A DNA stretch of 7,052 nt. Source: a virus. Lineage: Duplodnaviria > Heunggongvirae > Uroviricota > Caudoviricetes. Of the stretch, positions 1-7,052 are shown in pieces. The position numbers and the translations under genes were made by a program. Positions within the stretch are counted from its first letter, which is position 1. Every line of letters starts with the position of its first letter. The stretch lies in the IMG/VR virus record IMGVR_UViG_2778261417_000006, one strand, 5' to 3'. The notes below the pieces were generated by a model, which saw only the letters and a list, made by a program, of their open reading frames with translations, did not search any database and was not told the DNA's origin.

Positions 1-130
1 GAATCTGAGGCAGCACCTGGCACGGCTGGGACGGAAGTCGCTGTCGTTCTCAAAATCGGTGGAGCTGCATGACAAAGTCATCGGGCATTATCTGAACATA
101 AAACACTATCAGTAAGTTGGAGTCATTACC
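1..130 (+). mobile_element. IS1 right end, partial and window-truncated (3' end of insB plus terminal inverted repeat)
   Basis: Positions 2-115 translate to [37 protein letters not shown]-stop, the InsB C-terminus as I recall it. The element ends ...CTATCAGTAAGTTGGAGTCATTACC at 130, matching the IS1 terminal repeat. Bases 1-130 are the exact reverse complement of 6923-7052. Confidence 0.93.
2..115 (+). CDS. insB: IS1 transposase InsB, C-terminal fragment (gene continues upstream of the window)
   Basis: Open frame from the window edge to TAA at 113-115; the translation matches the InsB C-terminus from memory. Confidence 0.85.
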
Positions 131-748: not shown

Positions 749-1006
749 ATGGCAATTTATTCTCTTGTTGATGAAAACGATTTGCGCACAATGAAGGACA
801 TTGATCGGTTCATTCGTGAAAAAGAGTGCATAGCACTTACCACGCTGGCAAACTCAACACGCTGGAAAATGGAGCAGGCAGGTAAATTCCCGCGACGTAT
901 CAAGATCGGTGAACGTGCTGCAGGGTATCGACTTTCAGAGGTTCAGGCATGGATCCGTGGTGAGTGGCATCCTGGATGGAAACCTGGAAAAACAAAACAG
1001 CAATAA
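749..1006 (+). CDS. alpA: AlpA-family phage transcriptional regulator / excisionase-like DNA-binding protein
   Basis: 85 aa. The ATG lies 1 nt after the int stop and has an AGAGG-type SD. The motif IALTTLANSTRWKMEQAGKFPRRIKIGERAAGYRLSEVQAWI fits the AlpA/Xis helix-turn-helix signature (GxFP...W...ev..W). Confidence 0.8.
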   Translation: MAIYSLVDENDLRTMKDIDRFIREKECIALTTLANSTRWKMEQAGKFPRRIKIGERAAGYRLSEVQAWIRGEWHPGWKPGKTKQQ

Positions 1007-1062: not shown

Positions 1063-1641
1063 ATGAATAAAAATATTGCCGTGACGGGCAAGGGGTACGC
1101 TCGTCCAGTGAAAAAATTCTGCGATATTCGTGATCTCGTCGTTCTGCGCTTTGATAGTGTGAACGTTCGTGTGGTGTATCTGAACGGCGATCCGTGGTTT
1201 GTTGCAAAAGATGTTTGTGCTGCGCTGGAACTAACCAATTCGCGTACGGCGTTGCAGATGCTTGATGATGATGAAAAGGGAGTAAATTTAACTTACACCC
1301 CAGGAGGAAATCAGAATATGAGAATTATCTCTGAGTCAGGTTTCTACAAACTAATAGCCCGCAGCCGCAAAGCAACGACGCCTGGCACATTTGCTCATCG
1401 TTTCAGTAACTGGGTATTCAGAAATGTGATACCAGGTATCAGAAAAACGGGGACTTATGGTATCCCGTGGGGTGCATTACAGGATTTTTCCCGCCGTAAA
1501 GAGCAATATCAAATAAGTGCCAGCGAGAAGGGGAGGGAGCTACAGGCATGTAAGCGCAAAAAGCGTGAGCTGGAGGAAGAAGAAAAAACGCTGATACGTG
1601 AATATCAGCCTGAGTTTTACTTTGGTAACCGCATTCAGTGA
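1063..1641 (+). CDS. Bro-N domain protein (phage antirepressor-like) with charged C-terminal tail
   Basis: 192 aa. Residues about 35-140 (VRVVYLNGDPWFVAKDVCAALELTNSRTALQMLDDDEKGV...TPGGNQNMRIISESGFYKLIARSRKATTPGTFAHRFSNWVFRNVIPGIRKTGTY) match the Bro-N consensus closely. The C-terminus is K/R/E-rich and looks coiled-coil-like. Confidence 0.85.
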   Translation: MNKNIAVTGKGYARPVKKFCDIRDLVVLRFDSVNVRVVYLNGDPWFVAKDVCAALELTNSRTALQMLDDDEKGVNLTYTPGGNQNMRIISESGFYKLIARSRKATTPGTFAHRFSNWVFRNVIPGIRKTGTYGIPWGALQDFSRRKEQYQISASEKGRELQACKRKKRELEEEEKTLIREYQPEFYFGNRIQ

Positions 1642-1650
1642 CAAAACAAA

Positions 1651-1671
1651 GGCGACCGCAAAAGGGTCGCC
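1651..1671 (-). terminator. Hairpin with T-run on the minus strand; candidate terminator for the leftward unit, convergent with the Bro-N gene
   Basis: GGCGACC (1651-1657), loop GCAAAAG, GGTCGCC (1665-1671). The + strand A-rich tract just upstream (1641-1650) reads as a U-run on the minus strand. Confidence 0.5.
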
Positions 1672-1737
1672 AGTGGGAACAAGGGAAAACAAAAGCATCA
1701 CCAACAATGCCACATTTGCGGCTGGTGGGCAATGTGA

Positions 1738-1917
1738 TCAGTCAGATTTGGTTCGTTCCAAGGTTTGCAACGAGAGCTTTTTCCTGTGCTCTTTAAGGAA
1801 TTTCTCAAGAGCAAACGAACAAGGTGCGAATCTTTCTGATTCATGTTCATGCGCTATATTTTTGCGTCGTCTCTTACGAGTTGGTGATGGTGTTTTGGTT
1901 GATTCTGTGTCGCTCAT
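1738..1917 (-). CDS. Hypothetical small basic protein, 59 aa (absent from the supplied ORF track)
   Basis: Hand translation of the minus strand gives MSDTESTKTPSPTRKRRRKNIAHEHESERFAPCSFALEKFLKEHRKKLSLQTLERTKSD-stop. It sits 57 bp downstream of the 101-aa minus-strand gene, has an AGGA about 8 nt upstream, and the minus-oriented hairpin lies about 70 bp beyond its stop. Confidence 0.4.
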   Translation of the reverse strand: MSDTESTKTPSPTRKRRRKNIAHEHESERFAPCSFALEKFLKEHRKKLSLQTLERTKSD

Positions 1918-1974
1918 GGTGCTGTCCTGTAAAGCAATGCGCCTGCGTTCCTCAAACTATGGCGCTGATATTGG

Positions 1975-2280
1975 CTATTCATGCTCTTTGACCTTGCGTC
2001 GCTGGAGTTCTTCACGCGCGACGGTGACGAGTTGCCCGATCTCCTCGGCTGCTTTGATGCCGATTTGTTCGACCTTAGCCAGGGCATCCAGTGACGACAC
2101 AAGGGGATTTTCTCCGCTGCCTTCTGCTTGGCGGCGGGCTATTTCTCCGCGCATGGCGGTTACGATAAATCCGGCATTGCTTTCACCGTCCAGCTTAACG
2201 GATTCCATCCCTTGCATAACATCTAGTGGGACTCTGACAGTTGTCAGTTGTGATTTTGCGTTTTTGTTAGCCGTTGCCAT
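1975..2280 (-). CDS. Hypothetical 101-aa protein; candidate DNA-binding regulator of the element (possibly ribbon-helix-helix-like)
   Basis: AGGAG SD 8 nt upstream of the ATG. It is transcribed divergently from the rightward operon across a palindromic operator region. The N-terminal segment TTVRVPLDVMQGMESVKL is compatible with a beta-strand plus helix RHH fold, but the family is not recognised with certainty. Confidence 0.5.
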   Translation of the reverse strand: MATANKNAKSQLTTVRVPLDVMQGMESVKLDGESNAGFIVTAMRGEIARRQAEGSGENPLVSSLDALAKVEQIGIKAAEEIGQLVTVAREELQRRKVKEHE

Positions 2281-2301
2281 TTCTGAAACTCCTAATCATC
2301 G

Positions 2302-2379
2302 GTGTGTTTCAGTATACACAAAAAAAGAAATACAAAAAGCCTTGACGTGTGTTTCATGCGCTCATAACATGAAACACAC
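2302..2379. promoter_or_regulatory. Divergent promoter/operator region
   Basis: Perfect inverted repeat GTGTGTTTCATG (2347-2358) / CATGAAACACAC (2368-2379) with a 9-bp spacer. A third half-site GTGTGTTTCA sits at 2302-2311. Candidate + promoter: -35 TTGACG (2342-2347), 17 bp, -10 TAACAT (2365-2370). Candidate minus promoter: -10 TATACT (complement of 2311-2316). Confidence 0.6.
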
Positions 2380-2470
2380 CGAAAGGATTGTTGAAATACA
2401 AAGAGCAACGCCCCGCAGTGCTGGGAACACATACGGGGCGTCTAACCAACAACGTAAACTAGGAGCCGTT

Positions 2471-2668
2471 ATGGTTGCTGTAAATCATATACCACACCTT
2501 GTACACACACAAACGGCCTTTGTGTGGCGTTTTCTGGCACTGAGTGCCGGAGAATCTCAAATCATCCACGTAACCGCCTGGACGGAACGCGAAGCGCGTA
2601 GCCGTTGCCCGTCCGGTTGTGTTGCTGTATTCGCTGCAAAAATCCGCCAGGGAGTGAGTCATGCTTAA
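2471..2668 (+). CDS. Hypothetical protein, 65 aa; likely first gene of the rightward operon
   Basis: AGGAG SD 5 nt upstream of ATG 2471. Its stop overlaps the start of the next ORF by 8 nt. It is the 3' end of the long 1598..2668 stop-free frame in the ORF track. Confidence 0.45.
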   Translation: MVAVNHIPHLVHTQTAFVWRFLALSAGESQIIHVTAWTEREARSRCPSGCVAVFAAKIRQGVSHA

Positions 2669-3276: not shown

Positions 3277-3576
3277 ATGGAAATGAAAAATTCTGGCTTT
3301 ATTGCCAGCGGCCCCGCTCGACCTGAATTTATGAACGGCGATATTTACCGCGATAAATACGGCGGCACGGTAACGATTAAAGGCGTGGCAGAACGGCGCA
3401 TCACTTACCGCCGTGAGGGGTATAGCTATGACTGCGTGATGCCTGTTTATCAGTTCCGGCGTGATTTTTCCCTGGTATATGCCGCACCCCGCAGTAAGCC
3501 CATCAGCAGGGAAAAAGCGTGGGGAAATATCCAGAAAATGAAAACCATGATTAACGGATTCAGAGGTAAAAAATGA
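3277..3576 (+). CDS. Hypothetical protein, 99 aa; immediately upstream of and overlapping the primase-like gene
   Basis: GAGGA SD; ATGA start/stop overlap with the 584-aa ORF. Confidence 0.55.
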   Translation: MEMKNSGFIASGPARPEFMNGDIYRDKYGGTVTIKGVAERRITYRREGYSYDCVMPVYQFRRDFSLVYAAPRSKPISREKAWGNIQKMKTMINGFRGKK

Positions 3577-5327
3577 AACTGGCACCGAACGTAAAACAGC
3601 AGTCACGCGGCATAAAACACAAAGGAACAGAAGTAATTATTTTTGCGGGTAGTGATGCCTGGGCACACGCGAAACAATGGCAGGAACATGATGCGCGTAT
3701 GGCCGGAGATAATGAGCCTCCTGTGTGGCTTGGGGAGCAGCAGCTATCCGAACTGGATAATCTGCAAATTGTGCCGGAAGGCCGAAAATCAGCACGCATA
3801 TACAGGGCCGGATATCTTGCGCCTGTAATGATAAAGGCGATTGGTCAGAAGCTGGCGGCAGCAGGCGTACAGGATGCAAATTTTTATCCTGAGGGTATGC
3901 ACGGCCAGGAGGTGCAGAACTGGCGCGAATATCTGGCCCGTGAACGCCAGAATCTTTCTGATGGTCTGGTCATTGAGCTTCCGGTAAAGCAAAAGGCGCA
4001 ACTTTCGCAGATGGCGGACAGTGAGCGCGCGCAGTTGCTTGCCGATCGCTTTGATGGCGTTTGCGTACATCCTGAAAGTGAAATCGTTCACGTATGGCGC
4101 GGCGGGGTATGGTGTCCGGTCAGCACAATGGAACTTAGCCGCGAAATGGTGGCGATCTATTCAGAGCACAGGGCCACTTTCAGCAAGCGCGTAATCAATA
4201 ACGCCGTGGAAGCGTTAAAAGTTATTGCCGAACCAATGGGCGAGCCGTCTGGCGATTTGCTGCCGTTCGCCAATGGTGCGCTTGACCTGAAAACGGGGGA
4301 ATTTTCCCCGCACACGCCGGAGAACTGGATCACCACGCACAACGGCATTGAGTACACGCCACCAGCACCAGGGGAGAACATCCGCGATAACGCGCCAAAC
4401 TTTCATAAATGGCTTGAGCACGCAGCCGGAAAAGACCCGCGCAAGATGATGCGTATATGTGCCGCGCTGTACATGATTATGGCGAACCGGTACGACTGGC
4501 AGATGTTTATTGAGGCCACCGGAGACGGCGGGAGCGGTAAAAGTACATTCACACACATAGCCAGCCTTCTGGCAGGGAAACAGAACACGGTAAGCGCTGA
4601 AATGACATCGCTTGATGATGCTGGTGGACGTGCGCAGGTTGTCGGGAGTCGTCTTATCGTCCTGGCTGACCAGCCGAAATATACAGGCGAAGGAACGGGC
4701 ATCAAGAAAATCACAGGCGGCGACCCCGTGGAAATTAACCCGAAATATGAAAAGCGTTTCACGGCGGTAATCAGGGCGGTGGTGCTGGCGACCAACAACA
4801 ACCCGATGATATTCACCGAACGGGCCGGAGGTGTGGCACGTCGTCGCGTGATTTTCCGTTTCGACAATATCGTCAGTGAGGCCGAAAAAGACAGGGAGCT
4901 ACCGGAAAAGATTGCGGCTGAAATCCCCGTTATTATCCGCCGATTGCTGGCGAACTTTACCGACCCTGAGAAGGCACGGGCTTTACTACTGGAACAGCGT
5001 GACGGTGATGAAGCACTGGCAATAAAGCAACAGACGGATCCGGTTATTGAGTTTTGCCAGTTCCTGAATTTTCTGGAGGAAGCGCGCGGCCTGATGATGG
5101 GTGGCGGTGGTGATTCAGTGAAGTACACGACCAGGAACAGCCTTTACCGCGTCTATCTGGCGTTTATGGCATACGCGGGCAGGAGCAAACCGCTAAACGT
5201 GGCTGAGTTCAGCAAGGCCATGAAGCCAGCGGCGAAAGTTTACGGGCATGAATATATTACGCGAAAAGTTAAGGGAGTAACGCAGACCAACGCAATTACA
5301 ACAGACGATTGCGACGCGTTTTTATAA
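3573..5327 (+). CDS. Replication protein: P4-family primase C-terminal domain / D5-like SF3 helicase
   Basis: 584 aa. Walker A GDGGSGKST is encoded at 4521-4547. The block LIVLADQP...KKITGGDPVEINPKYEKRFTAVIRAVVLATNNNPMIFTERAGGVARRRVIFRF resembles the phage/plasmid primase P4-family C-terminal signature. GAGG SD 6 nt upstream. Confidence 0.82.
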   Translation: MKLAPNVKQQSRGIKHKGTEVIIFAGSDAWAHAKQWQEHDARMAGDNEPPVWLGEQQLSELDNLQIVPEGRKSARIYRAGYLAPVMIKAIGQKLAAAGVQDANFYPEGMHGQEVQNWREYLARERQNLSDGLVIELPVKQKAQLSQMADSERAQLLADRFDGVCVHPESEIVHVWRGGVWCPVSTMELSREMVAIYSEHRATFSKRVINNAVEALKVIAEPMGEPSGDLLPFANGALDLKTGEFSPHTPENWITTHNGIEYTPPAPGENIRDNAPNFHKWLEHAAGKDPRKMMRICAALYMIMANRYDWQMFIEATGDGGSGKSTFTHIASLLAGKQNTVSAEMTSLDDAGGRAQVVGSRLIVLADQPKYTGEGTGIKKITGGDPVEINPKYEKRFTAVIRAVVLATNNNPMIFTERAGGVARRRVIFRFDNIVSEAEKDRELPEKIAAEIPVIIRRLLANFTDPEKARALLLEQRDGDEALAIKQQTDPVIEFCQFLNFLEEARGLMMGGGGDSVKYTTRNSLYRVYLAFMAYAGRSKPLNVAEFSKAMKPAAKVYGHEYITRKVKGVTQTNAITTDDCDAFL

Positions 5328-5340
5328 TTTTTTGTAAAAG

Positions 5341-5564
5341 CCATCTACCCCATCTACCTGAACGAAATAAACGCATATTATTCAACATGATAAGTGGGTA
5401 TAGGGCTAGGTAGAAGGCTAATAAAAGCTCTCTACCTCTTCTACCTGATTTTATCAGTTTCAGGTAGCAGGGTAGACGGCAGGTAGAGGAGTCAAAAAAG
5501 CTATCTACCCGCTGAAAGCGGCGCCATTACTGACATGATGAGCATTCGGGTAGATGGGTAGAGG
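5341..5564. repeat. Iteron cluster; candidate origin of replication
   Basis: Eleven copies of the pentamer CTACC/GGTAG in 224 bp. Tandem CCATCTACC x2 at 5341-5358 is mirrored by GGGTAGATGGGTAGAGG at 5548-5564. Other copies: 5409-5414, 5431-5436, 5440-5445, 5463-5467, 5471-5475, 5482-5486, 5504-5509. An AT-rich core lies at 5359-5394. Confidence 0.65.
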
Positions 5565-6564: not shown

Positions 6565-6927
6565 ATGGTTGATTTATATTCGCCTACACAGCTTGTGCAG
6601 GTGGCTAATGCTGAAGATGTGCAAAAAAAATTAAATGCGTTGTTTACCAGTTTGTTTTTCACTCGCTCGGTAATGTTTGAATCGAGAGACATTATTCTTG
6701 ATACGATCGACGATCCAAATATCCCGATCGCGGCGTTTTGCTCTCCTATGGTGGGCAGTAAAGTTTCACGAGATGAGGGATACGAATCAAAAACAATTCG
6801 TCCAGGTTATATGAAGCCGAAAAGCAGCATTGATCCAAATAAGTTAGCTGTGCGCCCTGCTGGTGTGTCACCTGAGCAATACAATGCTTTTGGGGCGCGT
6901 AATATTAAAGTTAAACAGGCGAGGTAA
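6565..6927 (+). pseudogene. Lambda gpE-like major capsid protein, N-terminal about 120 codons only; truncated by IS1
   Basis: The translation from 6565 (MVDLYSPTQLVQVANAEDVQKKLNALFTSLFFTRS...FCSPMVGSKVSRDEGYESKTIRPGYMKPK...) resembles the lambda E N-terminus as I recall it (LFLRLFFRES...YVSPIVSGEVIRSRGG...TPGYVKPK). AAGAGG SD 6 nt upstream. The stop TAA (6925-6927) is supplied by the IS1 terminal sequence GGTAATGA. An alternative start at 6559 (MSMVDLY...) has no SD spacing. Confidence 0.65.
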
Positions 6928-7052
6928 TGACTCCAACTTACTGATAGTGTTTTATGTTCAGATAATGCCCGATGACTTTGTCATGCAGCTCCACCGATTT
7001 TGAGAACGACAGCGACTTCCGTCCCAGCCGTGCCAGGTGCTGCCTCAGATTC
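6923..7052 (-). mobile_element. IS1 right end, partial and window-truncated, inverted relative to the copy at 1-130
   Basis: Exact reverse complement of 1-130; begins GGTAATGACTCCAACTTACTGATAG. Confidence 0.93.
6938..7051 (-). CDS. insB: IS1 transposase InsB, C-terminal fragment (gene continues beyond the window)
   Basis: Mirror image of 2-115; the stop is the complement of 6938-6940. Confidence 0.85.

What the first reader, a model, noticed from the sequence alone, without database searches (positions are those of the whole stretch)
1738..1917. Unannotated 59-aa basic ORF downstream of the minus-strand regulator
This ORF is below the size cut-off of the supplied track. It forms a two-gene leftward unit with the 101-aa protein and is followed by a minus-oriented terminator hairpin. 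Its basic TRKRRRKN stretch suggests nucleic-acid binding. A regulator followed by a small partner is reminiscent of a toxin-antitoxin or co-repressor pair, though the sequence fits no toxin family I recognise.
Basis: inference. Interest (0 to 1): 0.45.

Follow-up and report, generated by a model that had tools for sequence, protein, structure and literature searches.

The report
Small gene antisense inside satellite read-through ORF
The 59-codon reading frame is real, conserved and probably translated as the second gene of a phage satellite's repressor operon, and it lies back-to-back inside a long gene on the opposite strand that also seems to be kept open by selection.

Summary
A 59-aa basic ORF (1738-1917, minus) has an AGGA ribosome site. 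It lies 57 nt downstream of the 101-aa gene and upstream of an intrinsic terminator (1671-1651).

The window is an IS-flanked piece of an E. coli PICI/P4-type phage satellite. The 101-aa protein is a YlcI/YnfO-family, probably ribbon-helix-helix, immunity repressor. Its operator repeats in the divergent promoter region change together with its N-terminal strand.

The small ORF is intact in every variant sampled:
- 59/59 distinct DNA variants from 81 viral/Shigella loci are intact.
- 10/10 E. coli genomes picked by DNA match are intact.
- pN/pS is 0.34 overall and 0.15 in the core ERFAPCxFALEKFLKE.
- At least 101 substitutions created no stop (P about 0.004).

It belongs to phrog_21027 and is deposited as 'hypothetical protein'. 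No toxin family matches, and repressor homologues in other genera lack it, so a toxin-antitoxin pair is unlikely.

Unexpectedly, both minus-strand genes lie antisense inside a 356-codon plus-strand ORF (1598-2668). They sit in its shared-wobble frame. This ORF ends in a homologue of P4 Kil and resembles P4 eta. Function of the small protein remains inferred: an auxiliary nucleic-acid or repressor-binding factor made in the quiescent state.

The parts
1738..1917 (-). 59-aa basic small ORF (ATG 1917, TGA 1740-1738); member of phrog_21027
1925..1928 (-). AGGA Shine-Dalgarno-like motif 7 nt upstream of the ATG. CAGG is conserved in all variants while the 8 nt between it and the ATG vary.
   Evidence: read
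1918..1974 (-). 57-nt intercistronic spacer. Its length is invariant in relatives, it shows no coding signal in any frame, and it holds a weak hairpin.
1975..2280 (-). 101-aa YlcI/YnfO-family protein. It is a probable ribbon-helix-helix immunity repressor with a C-terminal long helix, and the first cistron of the leftward operon.
1641..1671 (-). Intrinsic terminator of the leftward operon (stem 1671-1651, U-run 1650-1641). It has no U-run when read on the plus strand.
1696..1734 (-). 3'-UTR stem-loop directly after the small-ORF stop codon
2299..2382 (.). Three copies of the operator motif (TCG)GTGTGTTTCA at 2299-2311, 2347-2356 and, inverted, 2370-2382. They bracket the rightward promoter and overlap the leftward leader.
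2342..2370 (+). Rightward sigma-70-like promoter TTGACG-17-TAACAT, the counterpart of P4 PLE. The TTGAC hexamer is conserved at a fixed position in relatives.
2311..2316 (-). TATACT -10-like hexamer of the leftward promoter (GTATAC conserved in most relatives); inferred, not flagged by the scan
   Evidence: read
1598..2668 (+). 356-codon eta-like ORF, stop-free from 1595. It is antisense to both minus-strand genes in the shared-wobble frame and ends with the Kil/Icd-like domain.
2471..2668 (+). 65-aa Icd-like protein, homologue of P4 Kil, nested at the 3' end of the eta-like ORF with its own AGGAG ribosome site
1063..1641 (+). BRO-N/anti-repressor-like gene immediately upstream of the eta-like frame (context)
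749..1006 (+). AlpA-family regulator (context; the satellite's activator in related elements)

Best explanation
The 59-aa ORF is a genuine, translated second cistron of the leftward 'immunity' operon of an Escherichia PICI/P4-type phage satellite.

Proposed operon. Transcription starts at a promoter next to the operator repeats. It runs through the YlcI/YnfO-family repressor gene (1975-2280), the 57-nt spacer and the small ORF. It stops at the terminator at 1671-1651. The repressor binds three operator copies that cover the rightward promoter, which keeps the Kil/Icd-like gene and the replication genes off.

Antisense arrangement. The whole operon lies antisense inside a long rightward ORF that ends in the Kil homologue. 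By analogy with P4 eta, this ORF is translated only on transcripts that read through from the upstream AlpA/Bro genes after induction. It must stay open so that those transcripts are not terminated prematurely.

The small protein. It is made together with the repressor in the quiescent state. It is a soluble basic protein with a Lys/Arg-rich N-terminal segment and a conserved amphipathic helix (ERFAPCxFALEKFLKE). I think it most likely binds nucleic acid or the repressor to reinforce the OFF state. It is not a toxin.

What is shown: the ORF, its operon anatomy, its conservation, and the antisense overlap. What is inferred: translation, repressor activity, and the small protein's role.
For: ORF maintenance:
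- The ORF, ATG and SD-like CAGG are kept in 59/59 distinct variants and 10/10 DNA-selected E. coli genomes.
- At least 101 substitutions created no stop in this frame (P about 0.004).

Protein-level selection:
- pN/pS is lowest in this frame of all six. It is 0.34 overall and 0.15 in core codons 24-44, against 0.52 and 0.42 for the antisense shared-wobble frame.
- Events synonymous here but not in the antisense frame outnumber the reverse 14 to 6.
- Basic character is kept although the N-terminal sequence changes.
- No RNA-structure covariation explains the core.
- The family is recognised as phrog_21027 (E = 5e-15).

Operon context:
- The terminator hairpin is supported by a compensatory change.
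- The spacer length is fixed at 57 nt.
- The repressor identity rests.

Eta-like ORF:
- It has 0 stops against 12-22 in the other plus frames over 940 nt. The Icd-like gene is in the same frame in 45/59 module combinations.
- P4 Kil and the window's 65-aa protein both hit NF033153.
- An annotated 324-aa counterpart exists in a Klebsiella satellite.
- The same open frame occurs in Yersinia, Photorhabdus and Klebsiella.
- P4 eta biology is as summarised in PMC10111431.
Against: - Selection is weak outside the core. The N-terminal and C-terminal thirds do not discriminate between the two overlapping frames.
- C-terminal tails differ between modules, and a few database entries are frameshifted (P0002, P0007, P0018, P0022, P0029, P0032, P0034).
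- The family is tiny. There are 8 clusters at 50% identity among 1.8 billion representatives, essentially all Escherichia/Shigella.
- The ORF is missing from related satellites with the same architecture, so it is not a core part of the switch.
- An open frame in the shared-wobble shadow of another open frame is easier to get by chance.
- The AF2 model is only moderate (pLDDT 68.6).
- No expression or binding data exist here.
Confidence: 0.5

Rival explanations
1. Shadow ORF. Only the plus-strand eta-like frame and the repressor gene matter. The 59-codon minus frame is an untranslated by-product of lying in the shared-wobble frame of an ORF that selection keeps open.
For: - The ORF sits exactly in the shadow frame.
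- The N- and C-terminal thirds show equal pN/pS in both frames.
- The C-terminal tail tolerates frameshifts and module swaps.
- The family is lineage-restricted.
- Other genera have the same architecture without any ORF there.
- PGAP often omits it or calls the other strand.
Against: - The ATG and SD-like motif are invariant although flanking bases vary.
- The stop position is conserved.
- No stop arose in at least 101 substitutions (P about 0.004).
- Core pN/pS is 0.15 against 0.42.
- Discordant substitutions favour the minus frame 14 to 6.
Confidence: 0.2
2. Translated spacer. The ORF is translated, but only the act of translation matters. It shields the roughly 340-nt tail of the repressor mRNA from Rho, so that the transcript reaches the terminator and covers, as antisense RNA, the 5' part of the eta-like mRNA. 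The peptide itself has no role.
For: - This is symmetrical to what is reported for P4 eta.
- The leftward terminator lies at the very start of the eta-like frame.
- Constraint on most of the peptide is weak.
Against: - A 24-residue core is strongly conserved at the protein level.
- Related satellites in other genera have a 224-689-nt untranslated tail in the same place.
Confidence: 0.12
3. Cargo gene. The protein is real but is an accessory 'moron' expressed from the repressor operon in the quiescent state, as rexAB is with lambda cI. It would act on the helper phage, competing phages or the host rather than on the satellite's own switch.
For: - It is restricted to Escherichia/Shigella elements.
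- It is independent of the repressor's operator specificity.
- It is absent from otherwise similar satellites.
Against: - No match to any PADLOC defence model.
- It is very small and has no recognisable domain.
- It forms one recombination module with the repressor's 3' end.
Confidence: 0.15
4. Toxin-antitoxin pair. The 101-aa ribbon-helix-helix protein is the antitoxin and the 59-aa protein is the toxin.
For: - The gene order is RHH protein first, small protein second.
- There are weak Pfam similarities of some repressor variants to RHH antitoxin families (PSK_trans_fac E = 0.004).
Against: - No toxin family matches.
- The protein is hydrophilic, basic and helical.
- The intergenic gap is 57 nt.
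- The short 59-aa repressor forms leave no room for a toxin-binding domain.
- The partner is absent in other genera.
- The operators sit on the promoter of the replication operon, not only on the pair's own promoter.
Confidence: 0.03

Closest known systems
Bacteriophage P4 eta/kil nested genes downstream of vis (Forti et al. 1999, J Bacteriol 181:5225, as summarised in PMC10111431)
   Same: - A 65-aa Kil/Icd-like protein of the same NCBIfam family (NF033153) forms the 3' end of a much longer ORF in the same frame.
- That longer ORF begins upstream of an internal promoter, next to the AlpA/Vis-type gene.
- In several relatives its ATG abuts the stop of the upstream gene, as in P4.
   Different: - P4 uses the CI RNA for immunity, and no C4/IsrK-type RNA was found here.
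[quoted passage not shown]
- The eta-like ORF is 356 codons here against 197-199 in P4.
- Outside the Kil domain there is no sequence similarity.
YlcI/YnfO family (NF041551; DUF3950) small prophage proteins
   Same: The 101-aa neighbour matches the family model (63.3 bits, cutoff 30). It is widespread in Enterobacterales, and some members are labelled 'Arc-like DNA binding domain' by UniRef.
   Different: This concerns the neighbour, not the 59-aa ORF. No function is published for the family in the library searched. The operator covariation seen here is new evidence for a repressor role.
Repressor-linked accessory genes of temperate phages (lambda cI-rexA-rexB operon; own knowledge)
   Same: A gene co-transcribed with the immunity repressor and therefore expressed in the quiescent state.
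   Different: There is no sequence or size similarity. No exclusion phenotype is known for the small ORF. The operon is antisense to another ORF.
Type II toxin-antitoxin modules with ribbon-helix-helix antitoxins (e.g. ParD/ParE, CcdA/CcdB)
   Same: The order is a small RHH DNA-binding protein followed by a second small protein in one operon.
   Different: - The second protein matches no toxin family.
- The pair is not obligatory.
- The spacing is 57 nt.
- The operators control a divergent replication operon.
Arginine-rich-motif RNA-binding peptides of lambdoid N proteins (own knowledge; resemblance only)
   Same: An N-terminal run of Arg/Lys (RKRRRK) in a small phage-element protein, within a system governed by transcription termination.
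   Different: No homology was detected, no boxB-like target was identified, and nothing was tested.
Excludons / convergent antisense operons
   Same: Two oppositely oriented transcription units overlap extensively, and their expression should be mutually exclusive.
   Different: Here the overlap is coding-on-coding over about 490 nt in a fixed frame relation, not a UTR overlap.

Membership tests
phrog_21027 (phage ORF family, unknown function) | Significant match to the family profile | tested here: met
   E = 5.2e-15, 56.5 bits, residues 5-46 on profile positions 4-45 of 65
Type II toxin-antitoxin system (small ORF as toxin) | Toxin belongs to a recognised toxin superfamily | tested here: not met
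   No Pfam, NCBIfam or PADLOC match; no PDB sequence match
Type II toxin-antitoxin system (small ORF as toxin) | Toxin and antitoxin are an obligatory, co-inherited pair | tested here: not met
   The same small-ORF module follows repressor genes of 59, 65, 72, 89, 101, 103 and 106 aa. Repressor homologues in Klebsiella, Yersinia and Photorhabdus have no homologue downstream.
Type II toxin-antitoxin system (small ORF as toxin) | Toxicity on expression, neutralised by the partner | not testable with these tools
   Needs an expression experiment
Type I toxin (small membrane peptide with antisense RNA) | Hydrophobic transmembrane segment | tested here: not met
   GRAVY -1.42, 24 of 59 residues charged, pI 10.0
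YlcI/YnfO family (the 101-aa neighbour) | Match to NF041551 above the curated cutoff | tested here: met
   63.3 bits against cutoff 30, residues 9-50; 216 homologues across Enterobacterales
Ribbon-helix-helix DNA-binding repressors (the 101-aa neighbour) | N-terminal strand-helix-helix fold | tested here: inconclusive
   - The AF2 model (pLDDT 81.4) has short strands at 6-11 and helices at 19-28 and 35-55, then a long helix at 59-100.
- Foldseek found nothing.
Ribbon-helix-helix DNA-binding repressors (the 101-aa neighbour) | Sequence-specific binding to repeated operators at its own or a divergent promoter | tested here: inconclusive
   Three operator copies are present. At least 10 different repeat motifs occur at fixed positions, each with a different N-terminal strand sequence, and the same motif goes with the same strand (win and L014). 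This is covariation only; binding was not tested.
P4 eta/kil nested-gene arrangement (the plus-strand ORF) | Terminal about 65-aa Kil/Icd-like protein | tested here: met
   Window 2471-2668 hits NF033153 at 63.7 bits, and P4 Kil hits it at 76.1 bits, cutoff 25. A direct BLASTP of the two found no alignment.
P4 eta/kil nested-gene arrangement (the plus-strand ORF) | Longer ORF in the same frame, starting upstream of the internal promoter and next to the alpA/vis-type gene | tested here: met
   - The frame is open over 1595-2668.
- It is open in all 81 loci and continuous with the Icd-like gene in 45/59 module combinations.
- An ATG with SD lies at the stop of the upstream gene in several variants and in L086.
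- In the window itself only GTG/TTG starts are available.
P4 eta/kil nested-gene arrangement (the plus-strand ORF) | Translation of the long ORF prevents premature transcription termination | not testable with these tools
   Needs nonsense mutants and transcript mapping, as done for P4
P4-type RNA immunity (CI / C4 / IsrK RNA) | Match to Rfam C4 or isrK models | tested here: not met
   The whole window scanned at E <= 1 gave only a chance SR1 match

The most novel reading that the evidence does not exclude
The region is a true two-strand coding overlap that is conserved across Enterobacterales satellites. A rightward eta-like ORF is kept open only so that ribosomes can escort read-through transcripts. 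The satellite's protein immunity repressor is encoded antisense within it, in the shared-wobble frame. In the Escherichia lineage a second gene, the 59-aa ORF, arose de novo by overprinting in this sequence-unconstrained but stop-free stretch, and has since acquired a conserved helical core. This would also supply the 'missing' master repressor of Gram-negative PICIs, with many immunity types.
Probability: 0.35. Interest if true: 0.75.

Novelty: new variant of a known kind. Interest (0 to 1): 0.55.

Why it matters
Three points would matter if confirmed.

1. A candidate master repressor. [quoted passage not shown] The leftward operon studied here, with operator repeats that change in step with the repressor's N-terminal strand, gives a concrete and testable candidate. 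The 59-aa gene is its only co-transcribed partner in Escherichia elements.

2. An unusual antisense overlap. Two protein-coding minus-strand genes are embedded in a plus-strand ORF that appears to be selected for openness rather than for sequence. This is a rare, clean case of antisense gene overlap in bacteria. It extends the P4 eta/kil anti-termination logic to a protein-repressor setting.

3. A possible young gene. The small ORF may be a gene born in the shadow frame of another ORF. That would make it a useful model for de novo gene birth.

As a plain annotation matter, the ORF is already deposited as 'hypothetical protein', so on its own it is modest.

Tried and rejected
- Rfam scan of the whole window at E <= 1 found no C4/IsrK/CI-type RNA or any other family.
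- RNAalifold on nine diverse copies of the ORF gave -9.5 kcal/mol and no compensatory pair. An RNA element therefore does not explain the conserved core.
- PDB sequence searches with the 59-aa profile, the 101-aa protein and its profile found nothing significant.
- The AF2 model of the 59-aa protein is just two helices at pLDDT 68.6, so I ran no fold search on it.
- PADLOC gave no hits for any of the four local proteins.
- The genome-contig scan returned only one locus, because the collection holds one genome per species.
- The profile search of 1.8 billion representatives added only a few Escherichia-type relatives and one chance hit to a repeat protein, P0031.
- Stop-codon read-through fusion of the 101-aa and 59-aa ORFs was considered because they share a frame. 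I rejected it because the window has two in-frame stops in the spacer, the spacer shows no coding signal, and the shared frame is explained by both lying in the shadow frame of the plus ORF.
- The plus ORF as the only real gene was rejected because the minus frame has the lower pN/pS in the repressor gene (0.28 against 0.39) and in the small ORF.
- Direct BLASTP of P4 Kil against the window's Icd-like protein found nothing. The link rests on the shared NCBIfam model.
- The Forti et al. 1999 paper is not held, so P4 biology is cited through PMC10111431 and my own knowledge.
- The 408-aa members of one protein cluster are an unrelated DnaJ/TPR protein, a clustering artefact.

Full report
WHAT THE WINDOW IS

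The 7052-nt window is bounded by a perfect 130-nt inverted repeat (1-130 and 6923-7052). That repeat is a multicopy element found in 4975 of 5426 E. coli genomes; from its sequence I read it as IS1 ends.

Between the repeats lies a fragment of a phage satellite of the Gram-negative PICI/P4 kind:
- a 5'-truncated tyrosine integrase (193-747)
- AlpA (749-1006)
- a BRO-N/anti-repressor-like gene (1063-1641)
- the two minus-strand ORFs of the finding
- an Icd-like gene (2471-2668)
- several small ORFs and a DUF4222 protein
- a D5/primase (3573-5327)
- ten GGTAGA iterons (5344-5562)
- an SSB
- a truncated major capsid gene

Identical DNA occurs in E. coli CFSAN018748. There the intact satellite splits a lambdoid prophage portal gene. 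This is the helper-embedded PICI configuration described in PMC10111431.

THE OBSERVATION

The ORF exists as described. ATG is at 1917, TGA at 1740-1738, and it encodes 59 aa with pI 10.0 and GRAVY -1.42. An AGGA motif lies 7 nt upstream of the ATG.

The ORF lies 57 nt downstream of the 101-aa gene. A stem-loop follows it, and then a canonical intrinsic terminator (stem 1671-1651 plus U-run). In twelve variant terminators 98.8% of stem positions pair. One pair switches from G-C to C-G. Read on the plus strand, the hairpin has no U-run, so it stops only leftward transcription.

IS THE ORF A GENE?

Database status.
- Neither Pfam nor NCBIfam recognises it, but it matches phrog_21027 (E = 5e-15).
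- A word-indexed search of 5.8 billion proteins found 29 clusters, all Escherichia.
- An exhaustive profile search of 1.8 billion representatives added only a handful more.
- The exact protein is in GenBank as 'hypothetical protein' on at least 1000 contigs, from E. coli and Shigella sonnei.

ORF integrity.
- I collected 80 loci from IMG/VR and one from Shigella. They give 59 distinct DNA variants of the region. All have an ATG at the same place and an ORF of 57-60 aa.
- The sampling above was protein-seeded, so I also took ten E. coli complete genomes spread down a DNA-based hit list. All ten have the ORF intact.
- PGAP annotation is inconsistent. Of these ten genomes, five have the ORF annotated as 'hypothetical protein'. 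Three have a plus-strand pseudogene annotated instead, one has an overlapping ORF in another frame (L093), and one has nothing.

Substitution pattern.
- Among 29 distinct ORF alleles, pN/pS is lowest in the proposed frame of all six: 0.34 overall, and 0.15 for codons 24-44, which encode the nearly invariant ERFAPCxFALEKFLKE.
- At least 101 substitution events are needed to explain the alleles, and none makes a stop (P about 0.004 with uniform mutation).
- Events that are synonymous in this frame but not in the overlapping antisense frame outnumber the reverse 14 to 6.

Weaknesses.
- The N- and C-terminal thirds show no frame preference.
- C-terminal tails differ between modules.
- A few deposited proteins are frameshifted, several at an A-run.

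Other explanations.
- No RNA structure with covariation explains the conserved core.
- AlphaFold2 gives two helices (12-29 and 31-58) at moderate confidence.

I conclude that the ORF is probably a real gene, at about 0.7. It has a constrained 24-residue core and loosely constrained basic flanks.

THE PARTNER GENE

The 101-aa protein matches the YlcI/YnfO family (63.3 bits, cutoff 30). It has 216 detectable homologues across Enterobacterales, some named 'Arc-like DNA binding domain' by UniRef.

More telling is the divergent region. It carries three copies of (TCG)GTGTGTTTCA:
- one in the leftward leader
- one abutting the -35 hexamer of the rightward promoter TTGACG-17-TAACAT
- one, inverted, just after its -10 hexamer

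In relatives the positions of these repeats are fixed, but the motif differs in at least ten ways. Each motif is paired with a different sequence in the repressor's N-terminal strand. Two loci with the same strand sequence have the same motif. This is the signature of an immunity repressor with multiple specificities. The PICI literature held here states that a global repressor in Gram-negative elements was unclear (PMC6092414). I found no paper that links this family to PICI repression.

THE UNEXPECTED CONTEXT

The plus strand has a stop-free frame from 1595 to 2668, 356 codons from GTG 1598. It runs antisense across the small ORF, the spacer, the repressor gene and the promoter region, and it ends at the stop of the Icd-like gene. 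Over 1500-2750 that frame has 5 stops, none of them between 1595 and 2665. The other two plus frames have 19 and 22.

Both minus-strand ORFs lie in the frame whose third codon positions coincide with those of the plus frame.

The open frame is present in all 81 loci, at 232-576 codons.
- Over the 940 nt examined it has no stop for at least 700 nt in most loci, against 12-22 stops in the other two plus frames.
- In 45 of 59 module combinations it is continuous and in frame with an Icd-like gene that is only 43-57% identical to the window's. This holds despite repressor genes of 59-106 aa and essentially unalignable promoter regions. Shared descent cannot explain this.
- The same open antisense frame (237-391 codons, 0 stops against 10-34) surrounds YlcI/YnfO genes in Yersinia, Photorhabdus and Klebsiella elements.
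- A Klebsiella satellite record annotates a 324-aa counterpart whose ATG overlaps the stop of the upstream gene.
- In several E. coli variants an ATG with a good ribosome site sits at the stop of the upstream gene.

The spacer shows no protein-level selection in any frame. Within the repressor gene the minus frame has the lower pN/pS (0.28 against 0.39). The plus ORF therefore looks selected for being open, not for its sequence.

The precedent is P4. Its 65-aa Kil is the terminal part of the longer eta ORF, which begins next to vis, the AlpA homologue. Translation of eta on late-promoter transcripts prevents premature termination (PMC10111431 section 'Gene content'; Forti et al. 1999, not held). 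P4 Kil and the window's 65-aa protein both match NF033153. P4's eta frame with its three Met starts is visible in the record.

The difference from P4 is that no CI/C4-type RNA is detectable here. Instead, a protein repressor operon is written on the other strand of the eta-like ORF.

HOW IT MOST LIKELY WORKS

Quiescent state (inferred). The leftward promoter drives the repressor and the 59-aa protein. The transcript ends at 1651-1671, which is at the very beginning of the eta-like frame. The repressor occupies the operators and shuts the rightward promoter, and with it the Kil/Icd-like gene and the replication genes.

After helper induction (inferred, by analogy with P4 and with AlpA-dependent induction of E. 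coli PICIs). Transcription from the AlpA/Bro side reads through the one-way terminator. It is escorted by ribosomes translating the eta-like ORF and collides with the repressor operon. The two states should be mutually exclusive.

The small protein. It is made with the repressor. It has an Arg/Lys-rich segment next to a conserved amphipathic helix. My preferred role is therefore an auxiliary nucleic-acid- or repressor-binding factor that reinforces the OFF state.

Its restriction to Escherichia-type elements, and its independence from repressor specificity, fit a cargo function equally well. They also fit, less well, a purely 'translated spacer' role. A non-functional shadow ORF remains possible at about 0.2.

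NOVELTY AND VERDICT

As an ORF, this is already in the databases as a hypothetical protein and a PHROG of unknown function. What appears undescribed in the library I could search is the arrangement: a protein immunity operon, including this small gene, embedded antisense in the shared-wobble frame of an eta-like read-through ORF, conserved across genera. I rate it a new variant of a known kind (P4-type eta/kil control) and of moderate interest.

Noticed in passing
window 1-130 and 6923-7052: A perfect 130-nt inverted repeat lies at the two ends of the window. The sequence is multicopy in E. coli (4975 of 5426 genomes, median 10 places) and reads as IS1 ends. It truncates the satellite integrase and the major capsid gene. 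No complete E. coli genome in the collection holds the junction.
   Followed up: partly
L001 5837-6718 and 17564-18337 (E. coli CFSAN018748): The intact version of this satellite is inserted in a lambdoid prophage portal gene, which is annotated as two pieces. This is the helper-embedded PICI configuration of PMC10111431.
   Followed up: partly
window 5344-5562: Ten copies of GGTAGA on both strands, all within 220 nt just downstream of the primase gene (1.7 expected in the whole window). This is a probable iteron-type replication origin.
   Followed up: partly
window 2299-2382 and the equivalent region of L006-L085: Operator repeats occur at fixed positions but with at least ten different sequences. 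Each goes with a different N-terminal strand of the YlcI/YnfO protein, which suggests many immunity types among Escherichia satellites.
   Followed up: partly
L088 365-1267, L089 2329-3501, L090 2320-3030: Yersinia, Photorhabdus and Klebsiella elements also have a 237-391-codon stop-free frame antisense to their YlcI/YnfO gene. There it ends just before the next rightward gene instead of being fused to an Icd-like domain.
   Followed up: partly
window 4403-5128 (minus): A 241-codon ORF lies antisense to the primase gene. It is probably an ordinary shadow ORF, but it was not examined.
   Followed up: no
window 1975-2010 and relatives: The last roughly 10 codons of the repressor gene (QRRKxKExE), the 57-nt spacer and the small ORF behave as one recombination module. 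That module is joined to otherwise unrelated repressor bodies. Homology to the window starts about 30 nt before the repressor stop in many loci.
   Followed up: partly
window 1840-1856 (minus-strand GAATCAGAAAGATTCGC): Within the conserved core, five consecutive codons, including their wobble bases, are almost invariant across copies that differ by about 25% elsewhere. They can form a 5-6-bp hairpin. No covariation is available to test it.
   Followed up: partly
L003 2807-3364, L004 2905-3274, L092 107-664: PGAP annotates part of the plus-strand eta-like frame as an incomplete 'hypothetical protein' pseudogene overlapping the YlcI/YnfO gene. Reference proteins for that frame therefore exist in RefSeq.
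   Followed up: no
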